Origin: Bernardetia sp. OM2101
GTDB taxonomy: Bacteria > Bacteroidota > Bacteroidia > Cytophagales > Bernardetiaceae
DNA length: 64,000 nucleotides
NCBI RefSeq assembly: GCF_042180575.1
Contig: NZ_CP170094.1
Span: 1,912,604-1,976,603 of the forward strand
Direction: 5' to 3'
The notes under the pieces were generated by a model. The model was not told where the DNA came from, searched no databases, and was given only the letters and a program-made list of their open reading frames with translations. Shown one piece after another: positions 12,171 through 64,000 of this stretch (its first letter is position 1; each line of letters begins with the position of its first letter). The position numbers and the translations under genes are program-made.

Positions 12171-12205
12171 AAAAATAAGTGTGCTGTTGTTTGGTCTAAA
12201 CTATT

Positions 12206-12245
12206 GTCAGAGTTATTTTGGATTACCAAAAACTACTGACAAAGT
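12206..12245. repeat. REP-like palindromic element, inverted copy of the 172-215 element
   Basis: ttgtcagagttattttggattaccaaaaactactgacaa is the reverse complement (with few mismatches) of the element at 172. Confidence 0.6.
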
Positions 12246-12300
12246 TTTCCTGTTGATTTGAATATATTCATCCAATTTTATAAATTCAATACTCATTTTC

Positions 12301-51994: not shown

Positions 51995-52072
51995 TTATAA
52001 AACTCTCTACAAAATCAAAAAAAATTATGTAGAGAGTTTATTTTTGAGTAAATTTTGGAGAAAAATAAAATC
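51995..52072. repeat. Hairpin-containing element (ctctctacaaaatcaaaaaaaattatgtagagag plus T-rich tail), left direct repeat of the 52-kb cassette
   Basis: Near-identical second copy at 52578-52652; looks like the terminator of the upstream lipoprotein gene. Confidence 0.8.
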
Positions 52073-52074
52073 TT

Positions 52075-52464
52075 ATGAGTAATCAATGGAAAATAGACGA
52101 AAAATTAGCTAAAAAAGTCTATGCAAGAATAGAAAATTATACTGACGAAGAAAAACAAATTCTTTGGGATAAAATTAAAAATGAACTTCAAGAATATGAT
52201 TCTTTTACAGGAACTATTTTTGTAAAAGCTCCCTTTGGTGTTTTTTTGGATATTGGGAAAGAATTTCCTGCTTTGTTAAGAGTTGTAGCTATGAAGAATC
52301 TTAATGGTAGAAATTATCCCAATTACATGAATGATGAAATATGTAATCTAGGAGCAAAAATAAAAGTCTATTTTGTGGGGATGAGTGATGATGTAAAAGA
52401 TTTTATTGTTACAGAATATACAAAAGAACATATAGAATCTAATAAAGACCGTATTTTTACCTAA
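52075..52464 (+). CDS. Hypothetical 129-aa protein carried on a cassette flanked by duplicated terminator repeats
   Basis: ORF between the two repeat copies; no family recognised. Confidence 0.5.
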   Translation: MSNQWKIDEKLAKKVYARIENYTDEEKQILWDKIKNELQEYDSFTGTIFVKAPFGVFLDIGKEFPALLRVVAMKNLNGRNYPNYMNDEICNLGAKIKVYFVGMSDDVKDFIVTEYTKEHIESNKDRIFT

Positions 52465-52577
52465 AAAATAAAAATATTTTCTTCAAAAAATCGTATTTCT
52501 ACATTGAGAAATAACCCAAAACGTTTCGAATGTTTTAGCAAGGGGCATCGTCTATATGAGCATTTGGCGTTGGGTTT

Positions 52578-52652
52578 TATTCAAAACTCTCTACAAAATC
52601 AAAAAATTATGTAGAGAGTTTATTTTTGAGTAAATTTTGGGGAAAATAAATC
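52578..52652. repeat. Second copy of the hairpin/terminator element (right direct repeat), abutting the IS1 left inverted repeat
   Basis: aaactctctacaaaatcaaaaaattatgtagagagtttatttttgagtaaattttgg matches 52000-52058; followed directly by the IS1 inverted repeat at 52653. Confidence 0.8.
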
Positions 52653-53513
52653 GGTAGTGTTCTAAATATAAGGATGTTTTTTTTGAAAAAATGGCAATGA
52701 GTTGTGATATTTGTAAAATGCAAACTAAACAAACTCACATTTGCCCTCATTGCCAAGGCAAATATACCGTAAAAAACGGTCAAACTTATTACAATAAGCA
52801 AAATTACAAGTGTAAAACTTGTAAACGCCAATTTGTAGAACGTCCTTTACCTGAAAGTAAGGAAGCTATTATTAGTTCTTACCAAGATGAGTTAGTAGCT
52901 CAACTTCTATTAGAACGTATTGCTTTAAGAGGCATTAGTCGCCTTTTTAAAAAAAGTGTCAGTTGGGTTACTTCTCGTATGAAACTCTGCTATGAGCGAA
53001 TAAAAGAAGATTTGCCTATTGGTCGTTTAGCTTCAGCAGATATAGATTTATATCTGGTAGAAGCCGACGAGTTATGGAGTTTAGCTACGCTGAGCTCGCA
53101 AGCTCGGTTTGTAGGTGCTAAAGATTGTCCAGAATGGATCTGGTTAGCTATCGAAAGACGTACAGGATTGGTAGTTGGATTTCATAGTGGAGGTAGAGAT
53201 CAAGAGGGTGCATTAGGACTTTATTTGAGTATAGATAAGAAATTAAGAGAAAAAGCCATTGTTTATGCTGATGATTTTGCTTCTTATGGAACTGTATTTC
53301 CTAAAAAACAACTCCGACAAGAAGGTAAAAAAGAAACTACTAAAATTGAGCGTTTTAATAACACAATCAGACAGAGAAATAGCCCATTAGTTAGGCTTTC
53401 TTTATCCTTTTCTAAAAAATGGGAGAATCATTATAATTCAATCAAATATTTTATAGTAAATTACAACAATGAAATTATTGCATAGAATCCATCCTTATAA
53501 AAAGAACACCACC
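52653..53513 (+). mobile_element. IS1-family insertion sequence (about 861 bp) with 24-bp inverted repeats
   Basis: Left IR GGTAGTGTTCTAAATATAAGGATG; right end CATCCTTATAAAAAGAACACCACC (reverse complement GGTGGTGTTCTTTTTATAAGGATG); IS1-type GGT(A/G)GTG termini. Confidence 0.8.
52691..53485 (+). CDS. IS1-family transposase (single-ORF InsA zinc-finger fused to InsB-like)
   Basis: N-terminal C4 zinc finger (CDIC..CPHC, CKTC) and C-terminal ..ERFNNTIRQRNSPLVRLSLSFSKKWENH.. matching the IS1 InsB tail ([24 protein letters not shown]..). Confidence 0.8.
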   Translation: MAMSCDICKMQTKQTHICPHCQGKYTVKNGQTYYNKQNYKCKTCKRQFVERPLPESKEAIISSYQDELVAQLLLERIALRGISRLFKKSVSWVTSRMKLCYERIKEDLPIGRLASADIDLYLVEADELWSLATLSSQARFVGAKDCPEWIWLAIERRTGLVVGFHSGGRDQEGALGLYLSIDKKLREKAIVYADDFASYGTVFPKKQLRQEGKKETTKIERFNNTIRQRNSPLVRLSLSFSKKWENHYNSIKYFIVNYNNEIIA

Positions 53514-54001
53514 TAAAAATATCAATGTTGTACACAAAGAAATATTTTTTTTTATCCCTACATTACTATAATGGGAGAGTAAATCTGAAATGTAATCTTC
53601 AATAGCCATCTGTTTTTTTAAAACAAAGATAAGGTTTTTTGCATTACTAATGAACTTGTCCGTAGTTGTCAGTATTCTATAAATTTCCATTTCTTGAAAA
53701 AAACACAAAAGGAATAAAATGGCAAGATGGAAGATGGAGAGAGTACGTGTACATGGCTGAAAGTGGTGAAGTCATCTATCAAGAATAAAACCATCTACAA
53801 AAATTGCCTGCCCCAAATATTCTAAAACATAACCATTTCACAAAAGTTCTTTAGACTGGACAAAAAACTATTTCATTTTTTGTTCGTAAATTTGCATTTT
53901 ATTTAAACACAGAGTTCCTAGATAAAATATATTTAAAATTCACTACTGTACAGGAAAAGGCATGCCTTTTCCCTACAATTCTTAAATCTAACTTTATTAT
54001 C

Positions 54002-54316
54002 ATGGCAGTTATAGACATAGACGACTCAAACGTAAAAGAAAACTTGAACCAAAACGAAAAAGTAATTGTAAAATATTATGCGTCTTGGTGTGGCTCATGC
54101 AGACTAATCAAACCAAAATACAAGCGTCTTTCTAATGATGAGCGTTTTGAAGCAATTACTTTTTTAGATACTGATGCAGAACACAACCCAGAAGCTAGAG
54201 GTTTAGCAGGTGTTCAGAGCCTTCCTTATTTTGCTATTTTCAAAAATGGAGAATTGGTAGAAGGTCTTTCTACAAGCAAAGAAGAGAGTTTAATTGAGCT
54301 TTTAGAGAAATTATAA
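54002..54316 (+). CDS. trxA: Thioredoxin
   Basis: WCGSC active-site motif, 104 aa. Confidence 0.8.
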   Translation: MAVIDIDDSNVKENLNQNEKVIVKYYASWCGSCRLIKPKYKRLSNDERFEAITFLDTDAEHNPEARGLAGVQSLPYFAIFKNGELVEGLSTSKEESLIELLEKL

Positions 54317-54330
54317 TATTTTGTATAGTT

Positions 54331-54786
54331 ATGAATATTACAAAAAACTTAGAAAAAGCTAATATAACTCTTCCTTCTGTTTCAACTCCTGGAGGAACTT
54401 ATGTATCTGTAAATGTAAGAGCAAACATTGCCTACGTTGCTATTCAATTTCCAATCTTAGATGGAGAATATAAGTTTCAAGGTAGATTAGGAGATGAAAT
54501 TTCCACAGAAGAAGGATATGAAGCAATGAAATTATGTGCTTTAAATATTTTAGCTCAAATTGATTCAAAAATAGGTTTTGAAAATATTATGGGTCTAAAT
54601 CATATAGATGCTTACTTTCAATCCAATGAAACATGGGATGATTCTCCAAAAGTTGTCAATGGAGCTTCTGATTTATTTGTGCAAATATTAGAAGATAAAG
54701 GCATTCATTCAAGAGCTATTTTTGGAGTTCACAAATTACCTAGAAATTTCTCTGTTGGATTAACAGCTACTTTTACTATCAAATAA
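54331..54786 (+). CDS. RidA/YjgF-family (Rid) protein
   Basis: C-terminal ..RAIFGVHKLPRNFSVGLTATFTI.. resembles the RidA signature R.A..V..LP....VE..A.A. Confidence 0.5.
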   Translation: MNITKNLEKANITLPSVSTPGGTYVSVNVRANIAYVAIQFPILDGEYKFQGRLGDEISTEEGYEAMKLCALNILAQIDSKIGFENIMGLNHIDAYFQSNETWDDSPKVVNGASDLFVQILEDKGIHSRAIFGVHKLPRNFSVGLTATFTIK

Positions 54787-54804
54787 AATTATTGAACTAA
54801 TATC

Positions 54805-55047
54805 ATGAAATTACCAGTTATAAAACAATTAGTAGAAACTCATTCGTTAGAAGACCTCAAAAAAGCTGAAATGGCTATGGAAGAAGGAGAAAACCCTACT
54901 TTTGAAGTAAAAGGCGAAGACGAAGGCGAACAATTTACACACGTAATTGCAGCCGTTTGGGTAAAAGAAAAAATGGAAAAAGATGGCGTTGATGCTCGTG
55001 CTGCAATGCGTGAATATACACAGAAAGTAAGAAATTCAATAAGTTAA
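54805..55047 (+). CDS. Small hypothetical protein (80 aa, acidic)
   Basis: ORF with reasonable codon usage; no family recognised. Confidence 0.4.
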   Translation: MKLPVIKQLVETHSLEDLKKAEMAMEEGENPTFEVKGEDEGEQFTHVIAAVWVKEKMEKDGVDARAAMREYTQKVRNSIS

Positions 55048-55198
55048 ATTACGAATTTTCAATTACGACCTGCTAAAGCAGCGCAGCTAATTACGAATTG
55101 AAATACAAAAATAAACCTAGTATATTTATCATATATAAAAACAAAAGCTTATTGAGTATTCATTATTTTACTCTCGTAATTTTTAATTCGTAATTGAT
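55048..55198. repeat. TTCGTAA-family repeat region ending in the conserved motif cgtaatttttaattcgtaattga directly before the start codon
   Basis: aattacgaattttcaattacgacctgctaaagcagcgcagctaattacgaattg ... ctcgtaatttttaattcgtaattgatATG. Confidence 0.8.
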
Positions 55199-55552
55199 AT
55201 GAAAGAAGACAACATTATTCAGAAAAAGAGCTTTGATTTTGCTATCCGAATAGTGAATGCTTATAAGTTTTTGATTTCTAAACAAGAATATGTTTTGTCA
55301 AAACAATTATTACGTAGTGGAACTTCAATAGGTGCAAACGTAGAAGAGGCTATAGGTGGATATTCTAGGACAGATTTTGGTTTTAAATTATCCATTGCAT
55401 ACAAAGAAGCTAGAGAAACACTTTATTGGATTAAACTCTTAGAAGCAACTGACTATCTTTCAGAAGAAATGAGTAAAAGTCTGATTCAAGATGCAGAAGA
55501 AATCTGCAAAATAATTGGTAAAATACAAACTTCTTTAAAGAAAAATCAGTAA
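55199..55552 (+). CDS. Four-helix-bundle protein (23S rRNA intervening-sequence protein / Avd-like family)
   Basis: ..KKSFDFAIRIVNAYKFL...LLRSGTSIGANVEEA.. is the hallmark of the TIGR02436-type four-helix-bundle family. Confidence 0.75.
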   Translation: MKEDNIIQKKSFDFAIRIVNAYKFLISKQEYVLSKQLLRSGTSIGANVEEAIGGYSRTDFGFKLSIAYKEARETLYWIKLLEATDYLSEEMSKSLIQDAEEICKIIGKIQTSLKKNQ

Positions 55553-55559
55553 TAAATAA

Positions 55560-55640
55560 AACAGCGAAGCTAGTTAAGCTATAGAATTTCGTAATTAAAA
55601 ATTCGTAATCCGTAATTGACCAATTCGTAATTAAATTAAG
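55560..55640. repeat. TTCGTAA-family repeat region (cgtaattaaaaattcgtaatccgtaattgaccaattcgtaatt)
   Basis: Read directly; variant of the conserved roughly 30-nt motif. Confidence 0.8.
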
Positions 55641-55653
55641 TTTTTAACGGACT

Positions 55654-56883
55654 TTGAATCCGTTTCAAAAAAACAATACTATGAATATAACTACAAAAAA
55701 TCCAGAAAACCCTAATTCGAAAGGAAGAGTTTTGGTCGCCATGAGTGGTGGAATTGATAGTTCGTTGGCAGCCGTTTTGTTGCACGAACAAGGTTATGAA
55801 GTCATCGGAATGACGATGAAAACGTGGGATTATGCTGCTTCGGGTGGCAATATGAAAAAAGAAACGGGCTGTTGTAGCTTGGATTCTATCAATGATGCCC
55901 GTTCTATTTCGGTTGATTTGGGTTTCCCTCATTATATTTTGGACATTCGTTCCGAATTTGGCGATTACGTCATCGATTATTTTACAGAAGAATATATGGA
56001 AGGCAGAACGCCAAATCCATGTGTACTTTGCAATACGCATATCAAATGGGACGCACTTTTAAGACGTGCTGATAATTTGGGTTGTCAGTATATTGCGACA
56101 GGTCATTATGCCAATATTAGAGAGGAAAACGGACGTTTTGTAGTTTCGAAAGGTGTCGATACCAAAAAAGACCAATCGTATGTTTTGTGGGGTGTTTCGC
56201 AAGAAAGTTTGAGCCGTACTATGCTTCCTTTGGGAAATCTTACCAAAGCACAAATTCGTCAAATGGCATTGGATAGAGGTTTTGATGAGCTTGTCAAAAA
56301 ATCAGAATCGTATGAAATCTGTTTTATTCCTGATAATGATTACCGTAGTTTCTTGAAAAGAAGAGTTCCAGATATGGACGAAAAAGTAGGAAAAGGAAAC
56401 TTCATAATGACAACTGGAGAAGTAGTCGGACAACATGAAGGTTATCCGTTTTATACGGTCGGACAGCGCAAAGGATTAGGAATTGCACTCGGCGAACCTG
56501 CTTATGTAGTAGAAATTAAAAAAGATACCAATGAAGTTATTTTAGGTTTCAAAGATGATTTGTATAGAGATGGAATGATTGTCAAAAAATTAAATCTTCA
56601 AAAATATGCAAACATTGAAGGCGATTTACTGACCACTACAAAAGTTCGTGTACACCACGCAGGCGCACCAGCAACCATCACACAAAGCGAAGACGGACAA
56701 GAACTTACTGTTCTTTTTCACGAGCCTGTCGATGCCATTGCCCCTGGACAATCTGCCGTTTTTTATGATGGCGATGATGTCATTGGTGGAGGTTGGATAG
56801 TTTCTTCCTTCCAACAAATTGGAAACGAACGAATAGAGAAAAACTTGTTTCCTACGGAAGTTTATAAGCCGAAGACGGTTTAA
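55654..56883 (+). CDS. mnmA: tRNA-specific 2-thiouridylase MnmA; alternative start at 55681
   Basis: PP-loop VLVAMSGGIDSS, catalytic Cys region, C-terminal beta-barrel; about 400 aa. Confidence 0.9.
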   Translation: MNPFQKNNTMNITTKNPENPNSKGRVLVAMSGGIDSSLAAVLLHEQGYEVIGMTMKTWDYAASGGNMKKETGCCSLDSINDARSISVDLGFPHYILDIRSEFGDYVIDYFTEEYMEGRTPNPCVLCNTHIKWDALLRRADNLGCQYIATGHYANIREENGRFVVSKGVDTKKDQSYVLWGVSQESLSRTMLPLGNLTKAQIRQMALDRGFDELVKKSESYEICFIPDNDYRSFLKRRVPDMDEKVGKGNFIMTTGEVVGQHEGYPFYTVGQRKGLGIALGEPAYVVEIKKDTNEVILGFKDDLYRDGMIVKKLNLQKYANIEGDLLTTTKVRVHHAGAPATITQSEDGQELTVLFHEPVDAIAPGQSAVFYDGDDVIGGGWIVSSFQQIGNERIEKNLFPTEVYKPKTV

Positions 56884-56974
56884 TATATTTACCGAACGGT
56901 TCGCTTTGAGTGAACTGTTCGGTATTTTTTTGTATCTTAGATAAAGAGTTTTATAACTTAAAAGATAAAATAAA

Positions 56975-57229
56975 TTGATTATGGCAAAAATAGAACTACT
57001 ATTAAAAGACCTTGAAAACCTAAATCGTGATGAAATTTGGGTTGTCTGGGAATTTCTACAACAAAAAATAAAATCTTATACTCTAAATCCTGCTCAATCC
57101 GTAGAAAAAGAAGAAACAAAAAGACTACAATTTGATGATTTTTCGTTTGGACGTACTAGAGAAATTTTGAAAGGAAAAAATCTGAATTTGAGTGATGCTG
57201 TTATTGAAGAAAGGAGAAGTTACGAATGA
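56975..57229 (+). CDS. Putative antitoxin of the PIN toxin
   Basis: 84-aa ORF overlapping the PIN gene start by 4 nt (ATGA coupling). Confidence 0.5.
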   Translation: MIMAKIELLLKDLENLNRDEIWVVWEFLQQKIKSYTLNPAQSVEKEETKRLQFDDFSFGRTREILKGKNLNLSDAVIEERRSYE

Positions 57230-57651
57230 ATTTATTTTTAGATACTTCTGCATTATTGAAATTATACGATAATGAAATAGGCAGTGATGAAATGGAACTT
57301 TTATTCACTACCAATAAAATTGAAAAAATCTATCTCTCTTCTCTTACGATTTTAGAATTAGAATCTGCTATCAGAAAAAAACAACGTATGAAATTACTTA
57401 CAGAAAGTGAAACTGAAGAAATTTCAAGGCTTTTTACTGAAGATTCTAGCAAATTTACTTGGATAGAGATTGATGATAAAATTTTACAAAGAGCATTTCT
57501 ATTATTAAAAAAATACGGAATAGAAGGTTTGAGAACTTTAGATGCTATTCAATTATCAAGTGCCATTGAAGTAAAAAATGATGTTGCTTTGAATATTACT
57601 TATGATAAATTGCTAAAAAGTTTATTTGAAAAAGAAGATTTGAATAACTAA
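57226..57651 (+). CDS. PIN-domain toxin (VapC-like)
   Basis: MNLFLDTSALLKLYDNEIGSDEME.. N-terminal PIN motif with conserved Asp. Confidence 0.75.
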   Translation: MNLFLDTSALLKLYDNEIGSDEMELLFTTNKIEKIYLSSLTILELESAIRKKQRMKLLTESETEEISRLFTEDSSKFTWIEIDDKILQRAFLLLKKYGIEGLRTLDAIQLSSAIEVKNDVALNITYDKLLKSLFEKEDLNN

Positions 57652-57660
57652 AAAAATGAC

Positions 57661-57735
57661 TTCCAACAAATTGGAAACGAACGAATAGAGAAAAATTTGT
57701 TTCCTACGGAAGTTTATAAGCCTAAAACGGTTTAG
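57661..57735 (+). repeat. Orphan duplicate of the last 75 bp of mnmA (right direct repeat of the cassette)
   Basis: ttccaacaaattggaaacgaacgaatagagaaaaatttgtttcctacggaagtttataagcctaaaacggtttag compared with 56809-56883. Confidence 0.85.
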
Positions 57736-57760
57736 AGTTTCTTTTTAGGTAAAAAAAAGT

Positions 57761-59015
57761 GGTTCTTCCGACAATTTAGCGATAATTTCTTAATTTAGCC
57801 TTTCTATGGATACTAACACAATAGCAATTTTATTAGGTTTTTCAGATTTTTCAGTAACGAAAATAGAATCTTCTCCACTTCGCTTAACTATTTATGGAGA
57901 AAGTAATTTAGCCGATTCTATTTGTCCTAATTGCTTGAAAAAGTGCAATAAAGTGACTTCTACTTCAGAACGTATTGTTCGTGACCGAAATATTTTAGAC
58001 AAAGAGGTTTATTTACACTTAACTTCTCGTCAATTTCATTGTCAAGATTGTACTCGTTACTTTCAAGAAGTTTTTAGTTTTGTTTCTAAGCAAAAAAATC
58101 AAACTCATCGTTTGGAAAAATATCTTTATTTATGTTTGAAAGATAGCAGTTTCAAAGAAGTAGCTATCCGAGAAAACATACTTTGGGATGTTTTAGATGG
58201 TATTTTTAAAACCTATAGTAAACGTGAGATAAAAAAACACCTAGATTATTTTCCTCGACGTTTAGGTATTGATGAATTTGCTTACAAAAAAGGAAAAAAG
58301 GAATATGCTGTTGTTTTAGTAGATTTAGATACAGGTCAAGTTTGGGATATTTTAGAATACCGTAATAAAGAGTATTTAAAAGCCTATTTTTTATCCAAAG
58401 GCGAAGTTTTTTGTACTAGTATAGAAGTATTTTCTTGTGATATGTGGGAGGGATTTTCAAATACAGCAAAAGAAGTATTTCCTAACGCTGATGTAGTAAT
58501 AGATCGCTTTCATTTTTTTCAGCATTGTAATAAAGTGCTAGATAGCATTCGTAAAGAATTACGACGAAAAGATGATAAAAACGTTCATTTCAAGCAAATA
58601 AAATGGCTTTTATACAAGGCATGGAAAGACCTTACTTATAAAGAAAGACGAGTTTTACTTAAAGCGTTTAGGTTTAGCTCAACGCTTAGACAGGTGTATT
58701 TTATGAAAGTGGAATTACAAAATATATTTAATACTGATTTGAGTAAACAAGAAGCTAAAAAACTACTAGACCAATGGATAGAAGAAGCTCAAAAAATAAA
58801 TCATAAGGCTCTAAATAGATTTATAAATACGTTTAATTCTTGGAAAAATGATATTATTAATTTCTTCAAAGATAGATATTCTAACGGAATAGTAGAGGGA
58901 ATTAATAATAAAATTAAGACCCTCAAAAGGAGTGGGTATGGGTTTAGAAACTTTCAAAATTTTAGATTGAGAATGATAGTCAAATTCATATAATCGCTAA
59001 AAAGTCGGAAGAGCC
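57761..59015 (+). mobile_element. ISL3-family insertion sequence (about 1255 bp) with 23-bp inverted repeats and a perfect 8-bp target duplication AAAAAAGT
   Basis: Left IR GGTTCTTCCGACAATTTAGCGAT, right ATCGCTAAAAAGTCGGAAGAGCC; aaaaaagt at 57753-57760 and 59016-59023. Confidence 0.85.
57806..58993 (+). CDS. ISL3-family transposase
   Basis: N-terminal zinc-finger region (CPNC..C..; HCQDC) and DDE_Tnp_ISL3-like core, 395 aa. Confidence 0.8.
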   Translation: MDTNTIAILLGFSDFSVTKIESSPLRLTIYGESNLADSICPNCLKKCNKVTSTSERIVRDRNILDKEVYLHLTSRQFHCQDCTRYFQEVFSFVSKQKNQTHRLEKYLYLCLKDSSFKEVAIRENILWDVLDGIFKTYSKREIKKHLDYFPRRLGIDEFAYKKGKKEYAVVLVDLDTGQVWDILEYRNKEYLKAYFLSKGEVFCTSIEVFSCDMWEGFSNTAKEVFPNADVVIDRFHFFQHCNKVLDSIRKELRRKDDKNVHFKQIKWLLYKAWKDLTYKERRVLLKAFRFSSTLRQVYFMKVELQNIFNTDLSKQEAKKLLDQWIEEAQKINHKALNRFINTFNSWKNDIINFFKDRYSNGIVEGINNKIKTLKRSGYGFRNFQNFRLRMIVKFI

Positions 59016-59224
59016 AAAAAAGTTATATTTGAGCTATAAAATATTAAAGAAAATGTCCTATGGGGGCTAACGGAAGCTACAACCTCCAAATTGAAACATT
59101 TGGAATTGGGTTCAGGTTTTTTTCAAGAAATCCTGTAAAATGAAAACTTATTTTTATTTGTACTTGCCGTGTCAAAAGTATTCGCTGTTTACAGTGAATA
59201 CTTTTTTTATAAAAAAAAATAATT

Positions 59225-60730
59225 ATGGAAAAAATAATTCTAGGTGACATACAGAAAGAAGCTGAACAGAAAGCTGCTCAATATAATTTGTATCATAATT
59301 ATTTACATCTTGAGCACAAAAGAAATTGTCGTAGGTTGAAAAATCCTCCTGCAAAAGATGTTAGAACACCTGAAGAGTGGGGAGAAGACCGTAAATTTAA
59401 TCCATTTTATGTGTTAAAACACAAAAAGCAGATAGCAAGATCAATATCTAAGAAACTTTTAGACAAAAATTATAAGCCTAATCCTCCATATATAAAAATA
59501 ATACCTAAGAAAGGAGGAGGTACAAGAACAATAAGTATTTATCAAATCCCTGATTCTGCCGTATCTGATAGGTTTTATTATAACCTTTTAGGAAAAAATA
59601 GACATCGGTTTAGCTCATTGTCTTATGCTTATCGTAATGATAGAAATATACATTTTGCAATTCAAGATATAGCACAAGAGCTAACAAGTATTCCACGCAT
59701 TTATGTAGCTGAATTTGATTTTAGCAACTTTTTTGGGTCTATAGATCATAATTATTTGTTTCATCAATTAAAACAAAACTCTTTTTTAGTTAGTGAGCTA
59801 GAAATACATGTTATTGAATCTTTCTTAGAACCCTATAAAGAAGATAAGAAGGGAATCCCACTTGGTACTTCTATTTCACTATTTCTTGCTAATATAGTTT
59901 GTTGGGAACTAGATAGAAAGTTTGAAGATGCTGGGATTCGTTTTGCAAGATATGCTGATGACACGATAATATGGTCAAGAGATTATTCAAAAATCTCTAA
60001 AGCATTTGATATAATTGCAGATTTTTCTAAAGAAACAGGTATTTCACTAAACTATAAAAAATCTGATGGTATAAGTCTACTACAAAAGACAGGGTTAAAA
60101 TCGGAGTTTCACAATTCAAAAGAATTCATAGAATTCTTAGGATATAAAATATCATGTGAGAATGTGGGAATTAAAGATGCTTCTATATACAAAATAAAAA
60201 AGCAAATTTCTTATCTTTTGTATCGTAATTTAATTCAACCTATTAGAACTAAATCATTCAAAGCAATGAATCTTCCTGCAAATAATATGGATAAAGACTT
60301 TATAACTGCTATTATGCAGATAAGAAGATATTTGTATGGTAACCTAACTGAAATTACTCTCAAAAAGTATTTGAATGGTACATATAAACGATTTTCTTTT
60401 AAAGGAATTATGAGCTTTTATCCGTTAATAACGGATGAAAATCAGATGATTGAAATGGATAAATGGCTTTTGAGTACAGTAATGAACGTTTTAAATAAAC
60501 GTAAAAAGCTATTAAAAAGTCATATACCTACTTTTAACGAAGATCAATTTCCTTTTAATTGTAATAAAGATGATTTGATAAATGAATGTAGAAATAAATT
60601 GGTTTATCGTAAAAAAGGATTAATTGAATTACCCTCTTTCTTAAGAATATACAAGGCTATAAAAAAAGGTGTAGTAAATGAAGGAATAGAAAAAGTTATG
60701 CATCCGAATTCAAACTCATATTATGAATAA
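59225..60730 (+). CDS. Stand-alone reverse transcriptase (retron/Abi/defence-associated-type RT domain with N- and C-terminal extensions)
   Basis: RT motifs: 1-2 IIPKKGGGTRTISIYQIPDSAVSDRFYYNLL; 2a SYAYRNDRNIHFA; 3 YVAEFDFSNFFGSIDH; 4 GIPLGTSISLFLANIVC; 5 ARYADDTIIW; 6 LNYKKSDGI; 7 FLGYKIS; no endonuclease or maturase-like domain recognised. Confidence 0.8.
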   Translation: MEKIILGDIQKEAEQKAAQYNLYHNYLHLEHKRNCRRLKNPPAKDVRTPEEWGEDRKFNPFYVLKHKKQIARSISKKLLDKNYKPNPPYIKIIPKKGGGTRTISIYQIPDSAVSDRFYYNLLGKNRHRFSSLSYAYRNDRNIHFAIQDIAQELTSIPRIYVAEFDFSNFFGSIDHNYLFHQLKQNSFLVSELEIHVIESFLEPYKEDKKGIPLGTSISLFLANIVCWELDRKFEDAGIRFARYADDTIIWSRDYSKISKAFDIIADFSKETGISLNYKKSDGISLLQKTGLKSEFHNSKEFIEFLGYKISCENVGIKDASIYKIKKQISYLLYRNLIQPIRTKSFKAMNLPANNMDKDFITAIMQIRRYLYGNLTEITLKKYLNGTYKRFSFKGIMSFYPLITDENQMIEMDKWLLSTVMNVLNKRKKLLKSHIPTFNEDQFPFNCNKDDLINECRNKLVYRKKGLIELPSFLRIYKAIKKGVVNEGIEKVMHPNSNSYYE

Positions 60731-60821
60731 TATTTCCTTGCGCTTATTAGTGTTTTAGCATAGTGACATTTTTTTTCACGAAGCTATTTTAACTTTCATT
60801 TTTTCCTCAAAAAAAACTTTG

Positions 60822-60905
60822 TCAGTAGTTTGCCTAAGCAAACTCTGACAATAGTTAAAAGCAGTATAATCTAAACTATTGTCAAAGTCTGATTACAGAC
60901 TATTG
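60822..60905. repeat. Two adjacent REP-like hairpins of the ttgtcag...ctgacaa family
   Basis: ctttgtcagtagtttgcctaagcaaactctgacaatag and ctattgtcaaagtctgattacagactattgacaaag. Confidence 0.6.
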
Positions 60906-60945
60906 ACAAAGTTCAAATAATTTTTACATAAAAACACACACAACT

Positions 60946-61305
60946 ATGGCACTAACAGAACAAGAAATTAAAGAAATCATTGAAAATGAAATCATTGTAG
61001 ATGCTTATACTGATGAAGAAGCAGAAACAGGCTGGGCAACATACATGGAAGACAATATCAATTTTCCATTTGAAGCAGAATATTTAGTAAGGAGAGCATC
61101 TAAACCAAACGAATGGAAAAAAGTCAAAATTATAGAGAATTATACAAACTCTTCAAATTATGAAGGAGGAGAGTTTTATTTATCAGCTCTACTTGAAGAT
61201 GTGGATATGGTTATTCCAGTAGAAATAAGTGAACTAAGAAATGTAGAAGCAGATGAAGATACATTAGATACTTTTCAAATATGGGAATACAGAAATAAAT
61301 ATTAA
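60946..61305 (+). CDS. Small strongly acidic hypothetical protein (119 aa)
   Basis: 29 D/E against 10 K/R counted in the translation; downstream of and co-directional with the RT. Confidence 0.5.
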   Translation: MALTEQEIKEIIENEIIVDAYTDEEAETGWATYMEDNINFPFEAEYLVRRASKPNEWKKVKIIENYTNSSNYEGGEFYLSALLEDVDMVIPVEISELRNVEADEDTLDTFQIWEYRNKY

Positions 61306-61349
61306 TTTAACGACAAACTAAAAACTCTCACTCAAAAAACAAAAAAACA

Positions 61350-61550
61350 ATGTTTTCAGAAAAATATCCGAATTTAGAATATTGGGTTGATGCACAAGGT
61401 TGGATTGAACTCGGTTCAGATGAAAATAGCGACTCTTGGATTAGAATCATGGACACAGGAGGATTATGCTATGAAGATGAAGATTCAAGTTCATTAGATG
61501 AAGCCTTAGAAAAAGCTGAACGCTGGGCTGCTGAAGAAAATGAAGAGTAA
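61350..61550 (+). CDS. Small strongly acidic hypothetical protein (66 aa)
   Basis: 20 D/E against 4 K/R; follows the 119-aa ORF after 44 bp. Confidence 0.45.
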   Translation: MFSEKYPNLEYWVDAQGWIELGSDENSDSWIRIMDTGGLCYEDEDSSSLDEALEKAERWAAEENEE

Positions 61551-61619
61551 TTTTAAACTTATTTTATCTAAAAAATATGACGAAGAAAAATAAAAAACGA
61601 ACGGTTCACACAAAAGCAA

Positions 61620-61656
61620 ACCGTTCGTAATTTTTAATTCGTAATCCGTAATTGTA
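61620..61656. repeat. TTCGTAA-family motif copy (cgtaatttttaattcgtaatccgtaattg)
   Basis: Fourth occurrence of the conserved roughly 30-nt motif. Confidence 0.8.
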
Positions 61657-61658
61657 TC

Positions 61659-63995
61659 TTATTCTCTCAATAAAGAAACCCAACCTTTCAAAATCAAAAC
61701 TTCATCAGTTGGATTCAAACGATTAAAAGTAACTTTGACTTGGAAATAATACATTCCAGAAGGCATTTCTTTTCCGTTGTTATTTTCTCCATTCCAATCA
61801 ATAAAGACATTATTATCTTCATCGCTTGTAGTTTCAAAAACCAAATCTTCCCAACGGCTATAAATTTTGGTTTCTACATTTTTGACAAAAGCAGGACAGT
61901 CTAATGCTCTAAATGTATCATTTATTCCGTCGCCATTTGGTGTAAATACATTTGGTAGCGCATAATTTGGACAGTTATCATTACATACTTGATTACTAAA
62001 TGTACTCTCATTTCCAGACGCATCAAGAGCTGTAACAACATAACAACCTGCCACAGAACGAACTTGTTCGTGTGTATAAGTCGTGTCAGTAGTATTTATC
62101 AAAAGCTGCAATGAATCATTAATTTGGGCTTTGAAGTATAAATTATAACTACTCACTTCCAAATCACAATCAGGCGAATAATCATTTTGCCATCTCAATT
62201 CATTTCTAAAAAGAGAATCACTACAATAAATTGGATCTTCAAAATTAATGGTTTCACAAATCAAAGAGTCTAAAAACAAGGTTGTAGGCGAACAAGGAGG
62301 CGTTTCGTCAAGTGGAACAATACATACTTTTTGAGACTTGTTCAAAAGTGGTTCTGGCAAACCTTCTTTATTGTAACTTCCTTGTGTTGTAACAAAATAA
62401 CAATATTCTACCTTGTCTAAAAGCTCTGTATCAGTATAAGAAAACGAGCCACTAAAGACATTTATACTATCCAAAAGAACAAAATCAGTTCCATCAGCAT
62501 CCGTTTGACGATAAATATAATGTTGTGGAAAACGTGAATCAGTATTGTTCCAAGGCACTTCTGCACGCCAACTTAAAGTAGCTGCATTTACTAAAGGAGT
62601 TGCATTCAAACGAACAGAACTTGCCACAGCCGAAGAATCTACCAAATTATCATTTGAATAAAAAAGAACTCTATAATTATAAACTTCTTCTTCAGTATTC
62701 AGATTTGTGTCTCTAAAAGTAGTGTCATTTTCAGCAAAACGTTCTCCTAATTGCGTATAATTCTGAGTTCCAGAGAAACCATCTGCACGGAAAAGTTCAT
62801 ATTCATAAGGTCTTGGAAAATCTTCTTCTATGAGGTCTTGGGGTTTTGTCCATTCCACTTGCATTTCTCCATTTTCGGTGTCTGTTTCTTCTACACTTAC
62901 TTTTGTAATATACGGTGCATTGGTTGGAATAATTACACAAACTTCGTCAGAAACATAACTTTCTCCTCCTGCTGGATTTGGGAATCTTGCAAAAATACGG
63001 TAGCAATATGTTTTTCCTCGTTCTAATCCTTCTCCATTATTATCATCTAAATAGAATAGATTACCAATTTCATTTGTTCCAATTTGTGTATAACCTGTAT
63101 AAGCAGGCAAACCTGTTTCACATGTATCAGGGTTAAACTCAAAAGAGCCTACTCTTCGCCAAATAGTCATTTCACTAGCATTCGGACACTGATAAGAAAA
63201 CCAACTCAATGAAATGCTATTATCAACTGTATTGACATCAGCAATGAGCGTATCAGGTTTTGGACCTACAACTCGGATTTGCCACGTTTTTAAATCTACT
63301 AATTTGTTGCTGCTGGGTTGAGGTTGGTCTTCTGCTTTAAAAGTAACAGCATAAGGTTGCAAACGTACATCTTCACAGACTGTTTGCCAATCAAAAACAC
63401 CCTTTTCTTCTCCATTTGGAGGCTGAATATTCAAAACATTAAAATTCGCATAATTTCTTGGTGGAACAGATTGTAATACATTTGCATCTCTAAATAATGC
63501 ACTATAAGCAAAAAGTTTAACAAAATCTTCATCAGGGTCTGTTCCTGTAATTGTATCTCTTAAAAATGCTCCTGCCGTAACACAGGTATCTCTAGGAATT
63601 TCTAAAATAGGACGTTTATTTGGATTATCTCTTACAATAATCTGCATATCACGGTTTACTTGTCCAATCAAAATACCTTCTCGCCATTCTTGAACAATAA
63701 AAGCTACATTAAACTGCCCTGTTCGCCCAGGTGTATTCCAAACCAAATCTCCTGTAATGGGGTCAAGAGTAGCAATAGTTGCTCCTCCCTCTTCACGTTC
63801 TCCCCCAAATGAAGGGTCATCTAACAGACTAAAACCCTCAACTGGCGTATTTATATCACGTTTGGGAGTAACAAAAATATATGCTAAACTATCACCATCA
63901 GCATCATACGCCCCTGGATTATGAATAAATTTTTCACCTACACGAGCAAAGTCAATCGGTGGAACAAGCAAAATAGGTGACCTATTTAATCCCAA
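61659..63995 (-). CDS. Large cell-surface protein with T9SS/gliding-motility-type C-terminal sorting domain; the 5' end lies beyond the window
   Basis: C-terminal ..YALPNVFTPNGDGINDTF.. plus repeated beta-rich modules; the ORF is open to the window edge. Confidence 0.7.
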   Translation of the reverse strand: MGLNRSPILLVPPIDFARVGEKFIHNPGAYDADGDSLAYIFVTPKRDINTPVEGFSLLDDPSFGGEREEGGATIATLDPITGDLVWNTPGRTGQFNVAFIVQEWREGILIGQVNRDMQIIVRDNPNKRPILEIPRDTCVTAGAFLRDTITGTDPDEDFVKLFAYSALFRDANVLQSVPPRNYANFNVLNIQPPNGEEKGVFDWQTVCEDVRLQPYAVTFKAEDQPQPSSNKLVDLKTWQIRVVGPKPDTLIADVNTVDNSISLSWFSYQCPNASEMTIWRRVGSFEFNPDTCETGLPAYTGYTQIGTNEIGNLFYLDDNNGEGLERGKTYCYRIFARFPNPAGGESYVSDEVCVIIPTNAPYITKVSVEETDTENGEMQVEWTKPQDLIEEDFPRPYEYELFRADGFSGTQNYTQLGERFAENDTTFRDTNLNTEEEVYNYRVLFYSNDNLVDSSAVASSVRLNATPLVNAATLSWRAEVPWNNTDSRFPQHYIYRQTDADGTDFVLLDSINVFSGSFSYTDTELLDKVEYCYFVTTQGSYNKEGLPEPLLNKSQKVCIVPLDETPPCSPTTLFLDSLICETINFEDPIYCSDSLFRNELRWQNDYSPDCDLEVSSYNLYFKAQINDSLQLLINTTDTTYTHEQVRSVAGCYVVTALDASGNESTFSNQVCNDNCPNYALPNVFTPNGDGINDTFRALDCPAFVKNVETKIYSRWEDLVFETTSDEDNNVFIDWNGENNNGKEMPSGMYYFQVKVTFNRLNPTDEVLILKGWVSLLRE

Positions 63996-64000
63996 AAAAG

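What the first reader, a model, noticed from the sequence alone, without database searches (positions are those of the whole stretch)
59016..61560. Stand-alone reverse transcriptase with a structured upstream leader and two small acidic partner ORFs: candidate retron-like or defence-associated RT system of non-canonical architecture
The 501-aa protein carries the complete RT motif set (motifs 1-7 including the FF.SI box, YADD and FLG) but has no group-II maturase or endonuclease, no CRISPR context and no DGR components (no variable/template repeat pair). It has a roughly 100-aa N-terminal and 170-aa C-terminal extension. About 200 bp of non-coding sequence precede it, containing short hairpins (ccaaatt..atttgg; aaaagtattcgctg/cagtgaatactttt followed by a T-run) that could represent an msr/msd-like or other RT-templating ncRNA. 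It is followed, after a pair of REP-like hairpins, by two very acidic small proteins. The locus sits in an island with a toxin-antitoxin cassette and a freshly inserted ISL3. A single RT plus ncRNA plus small effector or mimic proteins is the theme of retrons, DRT and Abi systems, but this gene combination does not match a canonical layout I can name.
Basis: partly seen in the sequence, partly recalled or inferred. Interest (0 to 1): 0.85.

Follow-up and report, generated by a model that had tools for sequence, protein, structure and literature searches.

The report
Ordinary DRT9 antiphage reverse transcriptase locus
This is a standard two-part DRT9 phage-defence system (a reverse transcriptase plus its upstream templating RNA) in a Bernardetia genome; the two small acidic genes next to it are unrelated chromosomal neighbours.

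Summary
The layout is canonical, though. The 501-aa RT (59225-60730) matches the PADLOC Drt9 model end to end (697 bits; next best family 113 bits). It is 52% identical over its full length to SenDRT9, whose structure is solved (PDB 9ioa/9nlv). It keeps the YADD box and the C-terminal tyrosine pair.

The 209-bp leader holds the DRT9 ncRNA at 59054-59211. A covariance model built from 12 homologous loci, with the window left out, hits the window only there (88.7 bits). It also hits upstream of DRT9 RTs in Bacillus, Hymenobacter and a Salmonella-like contig. Of 34 modelled pairs, 25 show compensatory changes. The invariant CUUAYUUUUA tract corresponds to the published poly-U template.

The two acidic ORFs are not partners. 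They are absent from 12 other DRT9 loci. They are conserved at the same syntenic site in three Bernardetia genomes that have no RT.

An ISL3 with an intact 8-bp target duplication sits directly against the candidate ncRNA promoter box.

Verdict: a new member of a known, mechanistically characterised family. Interest is low.

The parts
59024..59031 (+). Candidate Bacteroidota-type -7 promoter box TATATTTG for the ncRNA/RT unit. The ISL3 target duplication (59016-59023) abuts it directly.
   Evidence: Read from the sequence. A TAnnTTTG box lies just upstream of the ncRNA in the homologous loci (consensus TATATTTG in alignment A1). Promoter function is inferred and was not tested.
59054..59211 (+). 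DRT9 non-coding RNA. The true 5' end may lie about 15 nt further upstream, near 59038.
   Evidence: Covariance model R1, built from 12 homologous loci without the window, gives 88.7 bits, E about 1e-18, full model length. It is the only significant hit in the 64 kb. On 16 sequences, 25 of 34 pairs have compensatory changes and 94.6% of cells are paired, against 42-52% when partners are slid.
59055..59067 (+). ncRNA stem-loop 1 (GUCCU-AUG-GGGGC).
   Evidence: Helix 1: 4 of 5 pairs covary and 98.8% of cells are paired.
59070..59080 (+). 5' strand of the long-range closing helix (invariant ACGG and its extension). It pairs with 59160-59170.
   Evidence: Helix 2: 4 invariant pairs plus 6 covarying pairs. 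Seen in the MFE fold.
59085..59104 (+). Internal stem-loop (UCCAAAU/AUUUGGA).
   Evidence: Present in the MFE fold. A hairpin of different sequence occupies the same position in the homologues (alignments).
59111..59137 (+). Internal stem-loop (CAGG/CCUG) with a U7 loop.
   Evidence: Helix 3: all 7 pairs covary. Seen in the MFE fold.
59145..59156 (+). Conserved AACUUAUUUUUA tract. U 59152-59155 align with the four invariant U's and are the inferred poly-dA template.
   Evidence: Four invariant T columns plus flanking invariant CTTA in 13 sequences. The same motif (AACUUACUUUUA) occurs in L013, whose RT is 76% identical to SenDRT9. SenDRT9 U123-U126 are the experimentally defined template (PMC12483538).
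59160..59171 (+). 3' strand of the closing helix, ending in the invariant CCGUG.
59174..59208 (+). Terminal stem-loop followed by a U-run, terminator-like.
   Evidence: Helix 5: 8 of 8 pairs covary and 100% of cells are paired. Seen in the MFE fold.
59225..60730 (+). DRT9 (UG28) reverse transcriptase, 501 aa. YADD at residues 243-246; C-terminal tyrosines Y499 and Y500.
   Evidence: PADLOC Drt9 E = 2.7e-210, 697 bits, residues 1-499 on profile positions 1-487 of 488. PDB SenDRT9 9ioa/9nlv 541 bits, E = 1.8e-161. 52% identity over 492 aa. YADD and a terminal Y-pair are present in 14 of 14 homologues.
57761..59015 (+). ISL3-family insertion sequence next to the system. It is not a component, but it replaces the sequence upstream of the promoter box.
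   Evidence: Pfam DDE_Tnp_ISL3 E = 1.9e-70. Inverted repeats at 57761-57783 and 58993-59015. 8-bp target duplication AAAAAAGT at 57753-57760 and 59016-59023.

Best explanation
The locus is a canonical two-component DRT9 (UG28, class 2 UG/Abi) antiphage system. It consists of a roughly 155-170-nt structured ncRNA (59054-59211) and, immediately downstream, the RT (59225-60730).

By homology to SenDRT9, the RT binds its ncRNA and forms an RNA-stabilised oligomer. On phage infection it repeatedly copies the short conserved U-tract (59152-59155). Synthesis is primed from a tyrosine in its own C-terminal tail (Y499/Y500). The product is kilobase-long poly-dA covalently attached to the enzyme, and its accumulation causes growth arrest or death of the infected cell (abortive infection).

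Shown here: family membership of the RT, presence of the ncRNA, its covarying structure and its conserved U-tract, and the catalytic and priming residues.

Inferred from the characterised orthologue: poly-dA synthesis, oligomerisation, the phage trigger and abortive infection.

The cassette is compact, running from about 59024 to about 60740. It lies in a variable stretch between mnmA and a conserved ccbP-like gene in Bernardetia sp. OM2101. An ISL3 copy has inserted directly against its candidate promoter box and may alter expression.
For: - RT: PADLOC Drt9 697 bits end to end; the next best family scores 113 bits. phmmer against the PDB gives SenDRT9 chains (9ioa, 9nlv and others) at 541 bits over residues 9-499; the next best is a group II RT at 70 bits. 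BLASTP identity is 52% with 1% gaps.
- Residues: YADD and two tyrosines within the last 2-5 residues occur in the window and in 13 homologues. Sen Y496/Y498 are the published primers (PMC12483538).
- ncRNA: a covariance model built without the window hits 59054-59211 at 88.7 bits. It also hits directly upstream of DRT9 RTs in a B. cereus plasmid (93 bits), a Hymenobacter plasmid (61.6 bits) and a Sen-like contig (62.7 bits). Covariation is strong.
- Template: the CUUAYUUUUA tract is invariant.
- Prior listing: close homologues of this RT (Flavobacterium chungangense, Bacteroides graminisolvens; 65-67% identity) appear as UG28 in Supplementary Table 1 of PMC12483538.
- Literature: DRT9 is an RT plus an upstream ncRNA, both required for defence (PMC9226505; PMC12483538).
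Against: - No experiment has been done on this orthologue or on any Bacteroidota DRT9, as far as the papers read here show.
- The window ncRNA has two internal hairpins inside the closing helix. The Sen-like ncRNA has three, so the details of oligomer assembly may differ.
- The window has U5 where Sen-like sequences have CU4.
- The ISL3 insertion has replaced everything upstream of the -7 box, so the system may be poorly expressed or silenced in this strain.
- The terminal hairpin and U-run end only about 17 nt before the RT start codon, so RT translation depends on read-through. The high ncRNA:mRNA ratio reported in PMC9226505 is consistent with this, but it was not tested here.
Confidence: 0.92

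Rival explanations
1. One reading: a non-canonical multi-component RT system in which the CcbP-like 119-aa and the 66-aa acidic proteins act as effector or mimic partners of the RT.
For: The genes are adjacent, on the same strand and very acidic.
Against: tblastn with both small proteins found no homologue in 12 other DRT9 loci with up to 4 kb of flank. None is annotated in the Bacillus or Hymenobacter plasmid DRT9 loci. The ccbP-like gene, and in two of the three genomes the 66-aa gene as well, occupy the same syntenic site in three Bernardetia genomes with no RT in 16 kb. The conserved upstream region of the ccbP-like gene starts within about 10 bp of the RT stop codon. That shows the DRT9 cassette was dropped in next to a pre-existing gene. 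The 119-aa protein belongs to Pfam Calci_bind_CcbP, which has no PADLOC hit.
Confidence: 0.03
2. The DRT9 cassette in this strain is silenced or decaying, because the ISL3 insertion has disrupted its promoter. It would then be a genomic relic rather than an active defence. This is compatible with the family assignment.
For: The right end of the ISL3 (59015) plus the 8-bp duplication abuts the TATATTTG box at 59024-59031, so the upstream (-33) promoter region is now IS sequence. IS inactivation of costly abortive-infection systems is common; this point rests on general knowledge.
Against: The RT ORF is full length with all motifs, and the ncRNA matches the full length of the model. The -7 box is retained. 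The IS end carries an outward-facing sigma-70-like match, TTGAGA-16-TATAAT, at 58967-58994, although that consensus may not apply in Bacteroidota. The perfect target duplication implies the insertion is recent, so decay would not yet be visible.
Confidence: 0.15
3. A retron: an RT with msr/msd RNA that produces msDNA and guards an effector.
For: A stand-alone RT with a structured RNA upstream. There is weak similarity to retron RT models (NCBIfam retron_St85_RT 63.5 bits).
Against: The retron model score is far below its cut-off (63.5 against 235). The PADLOC Drt9 score is about six times that of any other RT family. The RNA matches the DRT9 ncRNA model rather than an msr/msd layout. The RT is 501 aa with DRT9-specific N- and C-terminal regions that align to SenDRT9.
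Confidence: 0.01
4. A group II intron RT/maturase remnant, or a DGR RT. An Avd-like (23S_rRNA_IVP family) gene lies 3.7 kb upstream at 55199-55552.
For: NCBIfam group_II_RT_mat scores 135.9 bits. The IVP/Avd-like gene is nearby.
Against: 135.9 bits is below the cut-off of 300 and covers only the fingers-palm region. Rfam finds no intron RNA. There is no TR/VR repeat pair within 52-64 kb. The IVP gene is separated from the RT by mnmA, the toxin-antitoxin cassette and the IS.
Confidence: 0.005

Closest known systems
DRT9 (UG28) of Salmonella enterica, SenDRT9 (PDB 9NLV/9IOA; PMC12483538, PMC12489045)
   Same: Same two-part layout, with the ncRNA immediately upstream of the RT. The RT is 52% identical over its full length, including the N-terminal extension, the YADD box and the C-terminal tyrosine pair. 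The ncRNA shares SL1, the ACGG/CCGUG closing helix, the CUUAYUUUUA template tract and the terminal hairpin.
   Different: The host phylum is Bacteroidota (Bernardetia). The ncRNA has one fewer internal hairpin than the Sen-like form. It has U5 instead of CU4. The tyrosines are adjacent (YYE) rather than Y-D-Y. There is no functional data.
Bacteroidota UG28 homologues already listed in Supplementary Table 1 of PMC12483538 (e.g. Flavobacterium chungangense WP_031457641.1, Bacteroides graminisolvens)
   Same: 60-71% RT identity across the related loci found; the two species named here are at 65-67%. The ncRNA has the same length class and motifs. Flanking genes vary between loci and there are no conserved partner genes.
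   Different: The chromosomal insertion site differs. This copy has an ISL3 against its promoter box.
DRT2 (UG2)
   Same: A class 2 UG/Abi RT with an upstream structured ncRNA that serves as template.
   Different: DRT2 performs rolling-circle-like cDNA synthesis that assembles a de novo gene. The PADLOC Drt2 model scores only 68.6 bits here, against 697 bits for Drt9.
DRT10 (UG17) and telomerase-like repeat synthesis
   Same: Protein-primed, repeated copying of a short ncRNA template.
   Different: DRT10 needs a SLATT effector and makes tandem repeats. The RT_UG17 model scores 109 bits here. None of the seven ORFs scanned with Pfam between 55199 and 61550 has a SLATT domain.

Membership tests
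DRT9 / UG28 | The RT belongs to the UG28 clade, with a full-length match to the family profile. | tested here: met
   PADLOC Drt9 E = 2.7e-210, 697 bits, 1-499 on 1-487 of 488; next family 113 bits. SenDRT9 PDB chains 541 bits over 9-499.
DRT9 / UG28 | [quoted passage not shown] | tested here: met
   The covariance model built without the window hits 59054-59211 at 88.7 bits, ending 14 nt before the ATG. 25 of 34 pairs covary.
DRT9 / UG28 | A universally conserved uridine tract in the ncRNA, which is the poly-dA template. | tested here: met
   Four invariant U's within CUUAYUUUUA at 59147-59156, conserved in all 13 aligned sequences and in the Sen-like L013.
DRT9 / UG28 | A YADD catalytic box. 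| tested here: met
   YADD at residues 243-246, aligned to the Sen YADD.
DRT9 / UG28 | Conserved tyrosines in the C-terminal tail that act as the protein primer. | tested here: met
   The tail is ...NSNSYYE (Y499, Y500). Sen has ...SLNYDYE (Y496, Y498). A Y-pair is present in 14 of 14 homologues.
DRT9 / UG28 | An N-terminal helical extension that contacts the ncRNA and thumb. | tested here: met
   Residues 9-92, upstream of RVT_1, align without large gaps to Sen residues 11-95. This is sequence-level evidence only.
DRT9 / UG28 | ncRNA-templated, protein-primed poly-dA synthesis; an RNA-mediated hexamer; abortive-infection defence. | not testable with these tools
   Needs biochemistry and phage assays. 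Inferred from PMC12483538 and PMC12489045.
Retron | A retron-clade RT together with an msr/msd RNA. | tested here: not met
   retron_St85_RT scores 63.5 bits against a cut-off of 235. The RNA matches the DRT9 ncRNA model instead.
Group II intron RT/maturase | A maturase-clade RT inside an intron RNA with domains I-VI. | tested here: not met
   TIGR04416 scores 135.9 bits against a cut-off of 300. Rfam finds no intron in 57600-61700.
Diversity-generating retroelement | A TR/VR repeat pair and a target gene next to the RT. | tested here: not met
   No such repeat in 52000-64000. The RT is in the Drt9 clade.
   tblastn found them in 0 of 12 DRT9 loci, and none is annotated in the two plasmid loci. 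They are present without an RT in 3 Bernardetia genomes at the same site.

The most novel reading that the evidence does not exclude
The Bacteroidota/Bacillus-type DRT9 ncRNA seen here is a shorter structural variant, with two internal hairpins where the Salmonella-type has three. It might therefore assemble the RT-RNA oligomer differently, or respond to a different trigger. In this strain, expression might also be re-wired by the ISL3 inserted at the promoter. Neither point changes the family assignment.
Probability: 0.15. Interest if true: 0.3.

Novelty: new member of a known kind. Interest (0 to 1): 0.12.

Why it matters
It matters little beyond annotation. The locus adds a Bernardetia (Cytophagia) example to a defence family whose mechanism was solved in 2025. 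It shows that the ncRNA core is conserved across Bacteroidota, Bacillota and Proteobacteria: SL1, the ACGG/CCGUG helix, the U-tract and the terminal hairpin. The practical value is negative. The attractive idea of a new RT system with acidic partner proteins can be dropped, because those genes are conserved neighbours that do not depend on the RT.

Tried and rejected
1. Rfam scan of 57600-61700 at a permissive E-value. It returned only spurious miRNA-model hits on the palindrome at 60815-60913, on both strands. Rfam 15 gave no DRT9 ncRNA hit.
2. Exact-sequence look-up of the RT and of the CcbP-like protein in the assembly index. Neither is on record. The source organism was instead identified from a 100% identical CcbP-like cluster representative, Bernardetia sp. 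OM2101.
3. Search for a ready-made SenDRT9 ncRNA sequence in the paper's supplement. It is not held as text. I substituted a Sen-like locus, L013, whose RT is 76% identical to SenDRT9 and which came from viral contigs.
4. Test of whether the variable mnmA-ccbP region is a defence hotspot in other Bernardetia genomes. PADLOC gave no meaningful hit for the 9 cargo proteins, so that label was not adopted.
5. The sigma-70 promoter scan is of doubtful relevance in Bacteroidota and was used only as a side remark.
6. Helix 4 of the automatic consensus (AGAA/UUUU around the template) shows no double-sided changes. It is probably not a real helix but the single-stranded template region, so it is not claimed.
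Full report
**Observation**

- ORF 59225..60730 (+) encodes a 501-aa protein. Pfam RVT_1 covers residues 93-309 and YADD is at residue 243.
- The 209 bp between the end of an ISL3 element and the start codon contain no credible ORF.
- Downstream, 60810-60915 is a strongly folding double palindrome (z = -5.3).
- Two very acidic small ORFs follow, of 119 aa (pI 4.07) and 66 aa (pI 4.05).
- Upstream lie an antitoxin-like ORF plus a PIN protein.
- The ISL3 copy spans 57761-59015. It has terminal inverted repeats and a perfect 8-bp target duplication, AAAAAAGT, at 57753-57760 and 59016-59023.

**What the RT is**

Against PADLOC the protein matches the Drt9 model end to end: residues 1-499 on profile positions 1-487 of 488, 697 bits, E = 2.7e-210. 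The next best family scores 113 bits.

Against the PDB it matches the Salmonella enterica DRT9 RT (9ioa, 9iob, 9nlv, 9nlx and others) at 541 bits over residues 9-499. Group II and retron RTs score 70 bits or less. BLASTP identity to SenDRT9 is 52% with 1% gaps.

The NCBIfam models for group II maturase, Drt2, Drt3a, Drt4 and retron RTs all fall far below their cut-offs.

The C-terminal tail ends ...NSNSYYE. SenDRT9 ends ...SLNYDYE, and its Y496 and Y498 are the protein primers (PMC12483538). All 14 homologues examined carry YADD and two tyrosines in the last few residues.

Close relatives of this RT (60-71% identity) include Flavobacterium chungangense and Bacteroides graminisolvens (65-67%). 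Both already appear as UG28 in that paper's Supplementary Table 1.

**What the leader is**

DRT9 is defined as an RT plus an ncRNA encoded immediately upstream. Both are required for defence, and the ncRNA is unusually well conserved in sequence and structure (PMC9226505; PMC12483538).

Aligning the window's upstream region with those of 12 homologous loci shows:

- invariant blocks AACGG, GGU, CUUAYUUUUA and CCGUG;
- a terminal hairpin with a U-run;
- a TATATTTG box upstream.

I built a covariance model from the 12 homologues with the window left out. In the whole 64-kb window it gives one significant hit, 59054-59211 on the + strand, at 88.7 bits and E about 1e-18 over the full model length.

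The same model finds an RNA directly upstream of DRT9 RTs in three further places:

| Locus | Source | Score |
|---|---|---|
| L014 | Bacillus cereus plasmid | 93 bits |
| L015 | Hymenobacter plasmid | 61.6 bits |
| L013 | contig whose RT is 76% identical to SenDRT9 | 62.7 bits |

On the 16 aligned RNAs, 94.6% of cells form standard pairs, against 42-52% when partners are slid. Of 34 pairs, 25 show compensatory changes, and 0 of 500 shuffles reach the observed values. That alignment is fitted to the model, which favours the modelled structure. The independent MAFFT/RNAalifold analysis gave the same helices, with 15 of 25 pairs compensatory.

The U-tract at 59151-59155 aligns with the four invariant U's. 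SenDRT9 U123-U126 are the demonstrated poly-dA template.

**What the small acidic ORFs are**

The 119-aa protein belongs to Pfam Calci_bind_CcbP (E = 5.6e-23). The 66-aa protein has no family match.

Neither has a homologue in the 12 DRT9 loci (tblastn), and none is annotated in the two plasmid loci.

A homologue search shows the 119-aa protein is 100% identical to a protein of Bernardetia sp. OM2101. That identifies the source organism. The protein is conserved at 70-88% identity across other Bernardetia.

In Bernardetia sp. Wsw4-3y2, B. litoralis DSM 6794 and a metagenomic Bernardetia chromosome, the gene sits in the same synteny as here: thioredoxin - DUF6952 - mnmA - [variable genes] - ccbP-like - (66-aa ORF in two of the three) - ... 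- CHU_C protein. No RT occurs in the 16 kb examined in any of them.

The conserved upstream region of the ccbP-like gene begins within about 10 bp of the RT stop codon. The DRT9 cassette, about 59024-60740, is therefore a compact insertion in a variable stretch, and the acidic ORFs are resident neighbours.

The palindrome at 60817-60908 is present in this genome and in one other, and absent in two. Related copies lie at 166-222 and 12195-12248 of the window. It is a REP-like dispersed repeat and not an RT-associated RNA.

**Mechanism (inferred by homology)**

The RT binds the ncRNA and forms an RNA-stabilised oligomer. On infection it repeatedly copies the U-tract, priming from a C-terminal tyrosine, to give long protein-linked poly-dA. 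Accumulation of that product drives abortive infection (PMC12483538, PMC12489045).

The sequence-level prerequisites are shown here: clade membership, ncRNA, U-tract, YADD, tyrosines and the N-terminal extension. The activity itself is not shown.

There are two local peculiarities.

1. Inside the ACGG/CCGU closing helix the window RNA has two hairpins. The Sen-like RNA has three.
2. The ISL3 target duplication abuts the candidate -7 box at 59024-59031, so the original upstream promoter region is now 1.26 kb away. Expression may be reduced, or may be driven from the IS end. This is untested.

**Rivals**

- A retron, a group II intron RT and a DGR RT fail their defining features.
- A silenced-locus reading is compatible with the family assignment and cannot be excluded (about 0.15).

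**Novelty and score**

This is a routine, previously uncharacterised member of a family whose layout was described in 2022 and whose mechanism was solved in 2025. Standard defence-finder tools would label it DRT9. Interest is 0.12.

Noticed in passing
window 56808-56882 and 57660-57734: A 75-nt direct repeat (96% identical) consisting of the 3' end of mnmA brackets the antitoxin + PIN cassette (56975-57651). Bernardetia sp. Wsw4-3y2 (L016) carries the same duplication but only the antitoxin homologue. This suggests a small cassette integrated at the 3' end of mnmA with duplication of the attachment site.
   Followed up: partly
window 60817-60908; also 166-222 and 12195-12248; L020 3991-4042: A dispersed REP-like palindromic repeat family (TTTGTCAGTAGTTT...AAACTCTGACAATAGTT). 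The double unit upstream of the ccbP-like gene is present in this genome and in L020 and absent in L016 and L017, so it is an indel.
   Followed up: partly
window 55055-55639 (ORF 55199-55552): A 23S_rRNA_IVP / Avd-like four-helix-bundle gene lies in a stretch of about 585 bp between DUF6952 and mnmA. That stretch is absent from the three other Bernardetia genomes. No TR/VR repeat is nearby, so there is no sign of a DGR.
   Followed up: partly
window 56884-60740 compared with L016 4809-7980, L017 5445-7960, L020 6317-7900: The interval between mnmA and the ccbP-like gene carries different cargo in each of four Bernardetia genomes. Here the cargo is the toxin-antitoxin cassette, the ISL3 and DRT9. 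The cargo proteins of the other three genomes have no meaningful PADLOC hit.
   Followed up: partly
window 52019-52064 and 52601-52646: A 46-nt direct repeat (98% identical) brackets a 129-aa ORF (52075-52464). A 264-aa ORF with a zinc-finger-like N-terminus, which looks transposase-like by eye but was not scanned, lies next to it at 52691-53485.
   Followed up: no
window 58967-58994: A near-consensus sigma-70-type promoter match (TTGAGA-16-TATAAT, 11 of 12) inside the right end of the ISL3 points outward toward the DRT9 ncRNA. Its relevance in a Bacteroidota host is doubtful.
   Followed up: no
L001 (contig binned as Sulfurovum sp. MAG): The closest DRT9 RT homologue (71% identity) lies on a 5-kb contig binned to a Campylobacterota MAG. 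Its ncRNA and promoter region look Bacteroidota-like, which suggests either horizontal transfer or a mis-binned contig.
   Followed up: no
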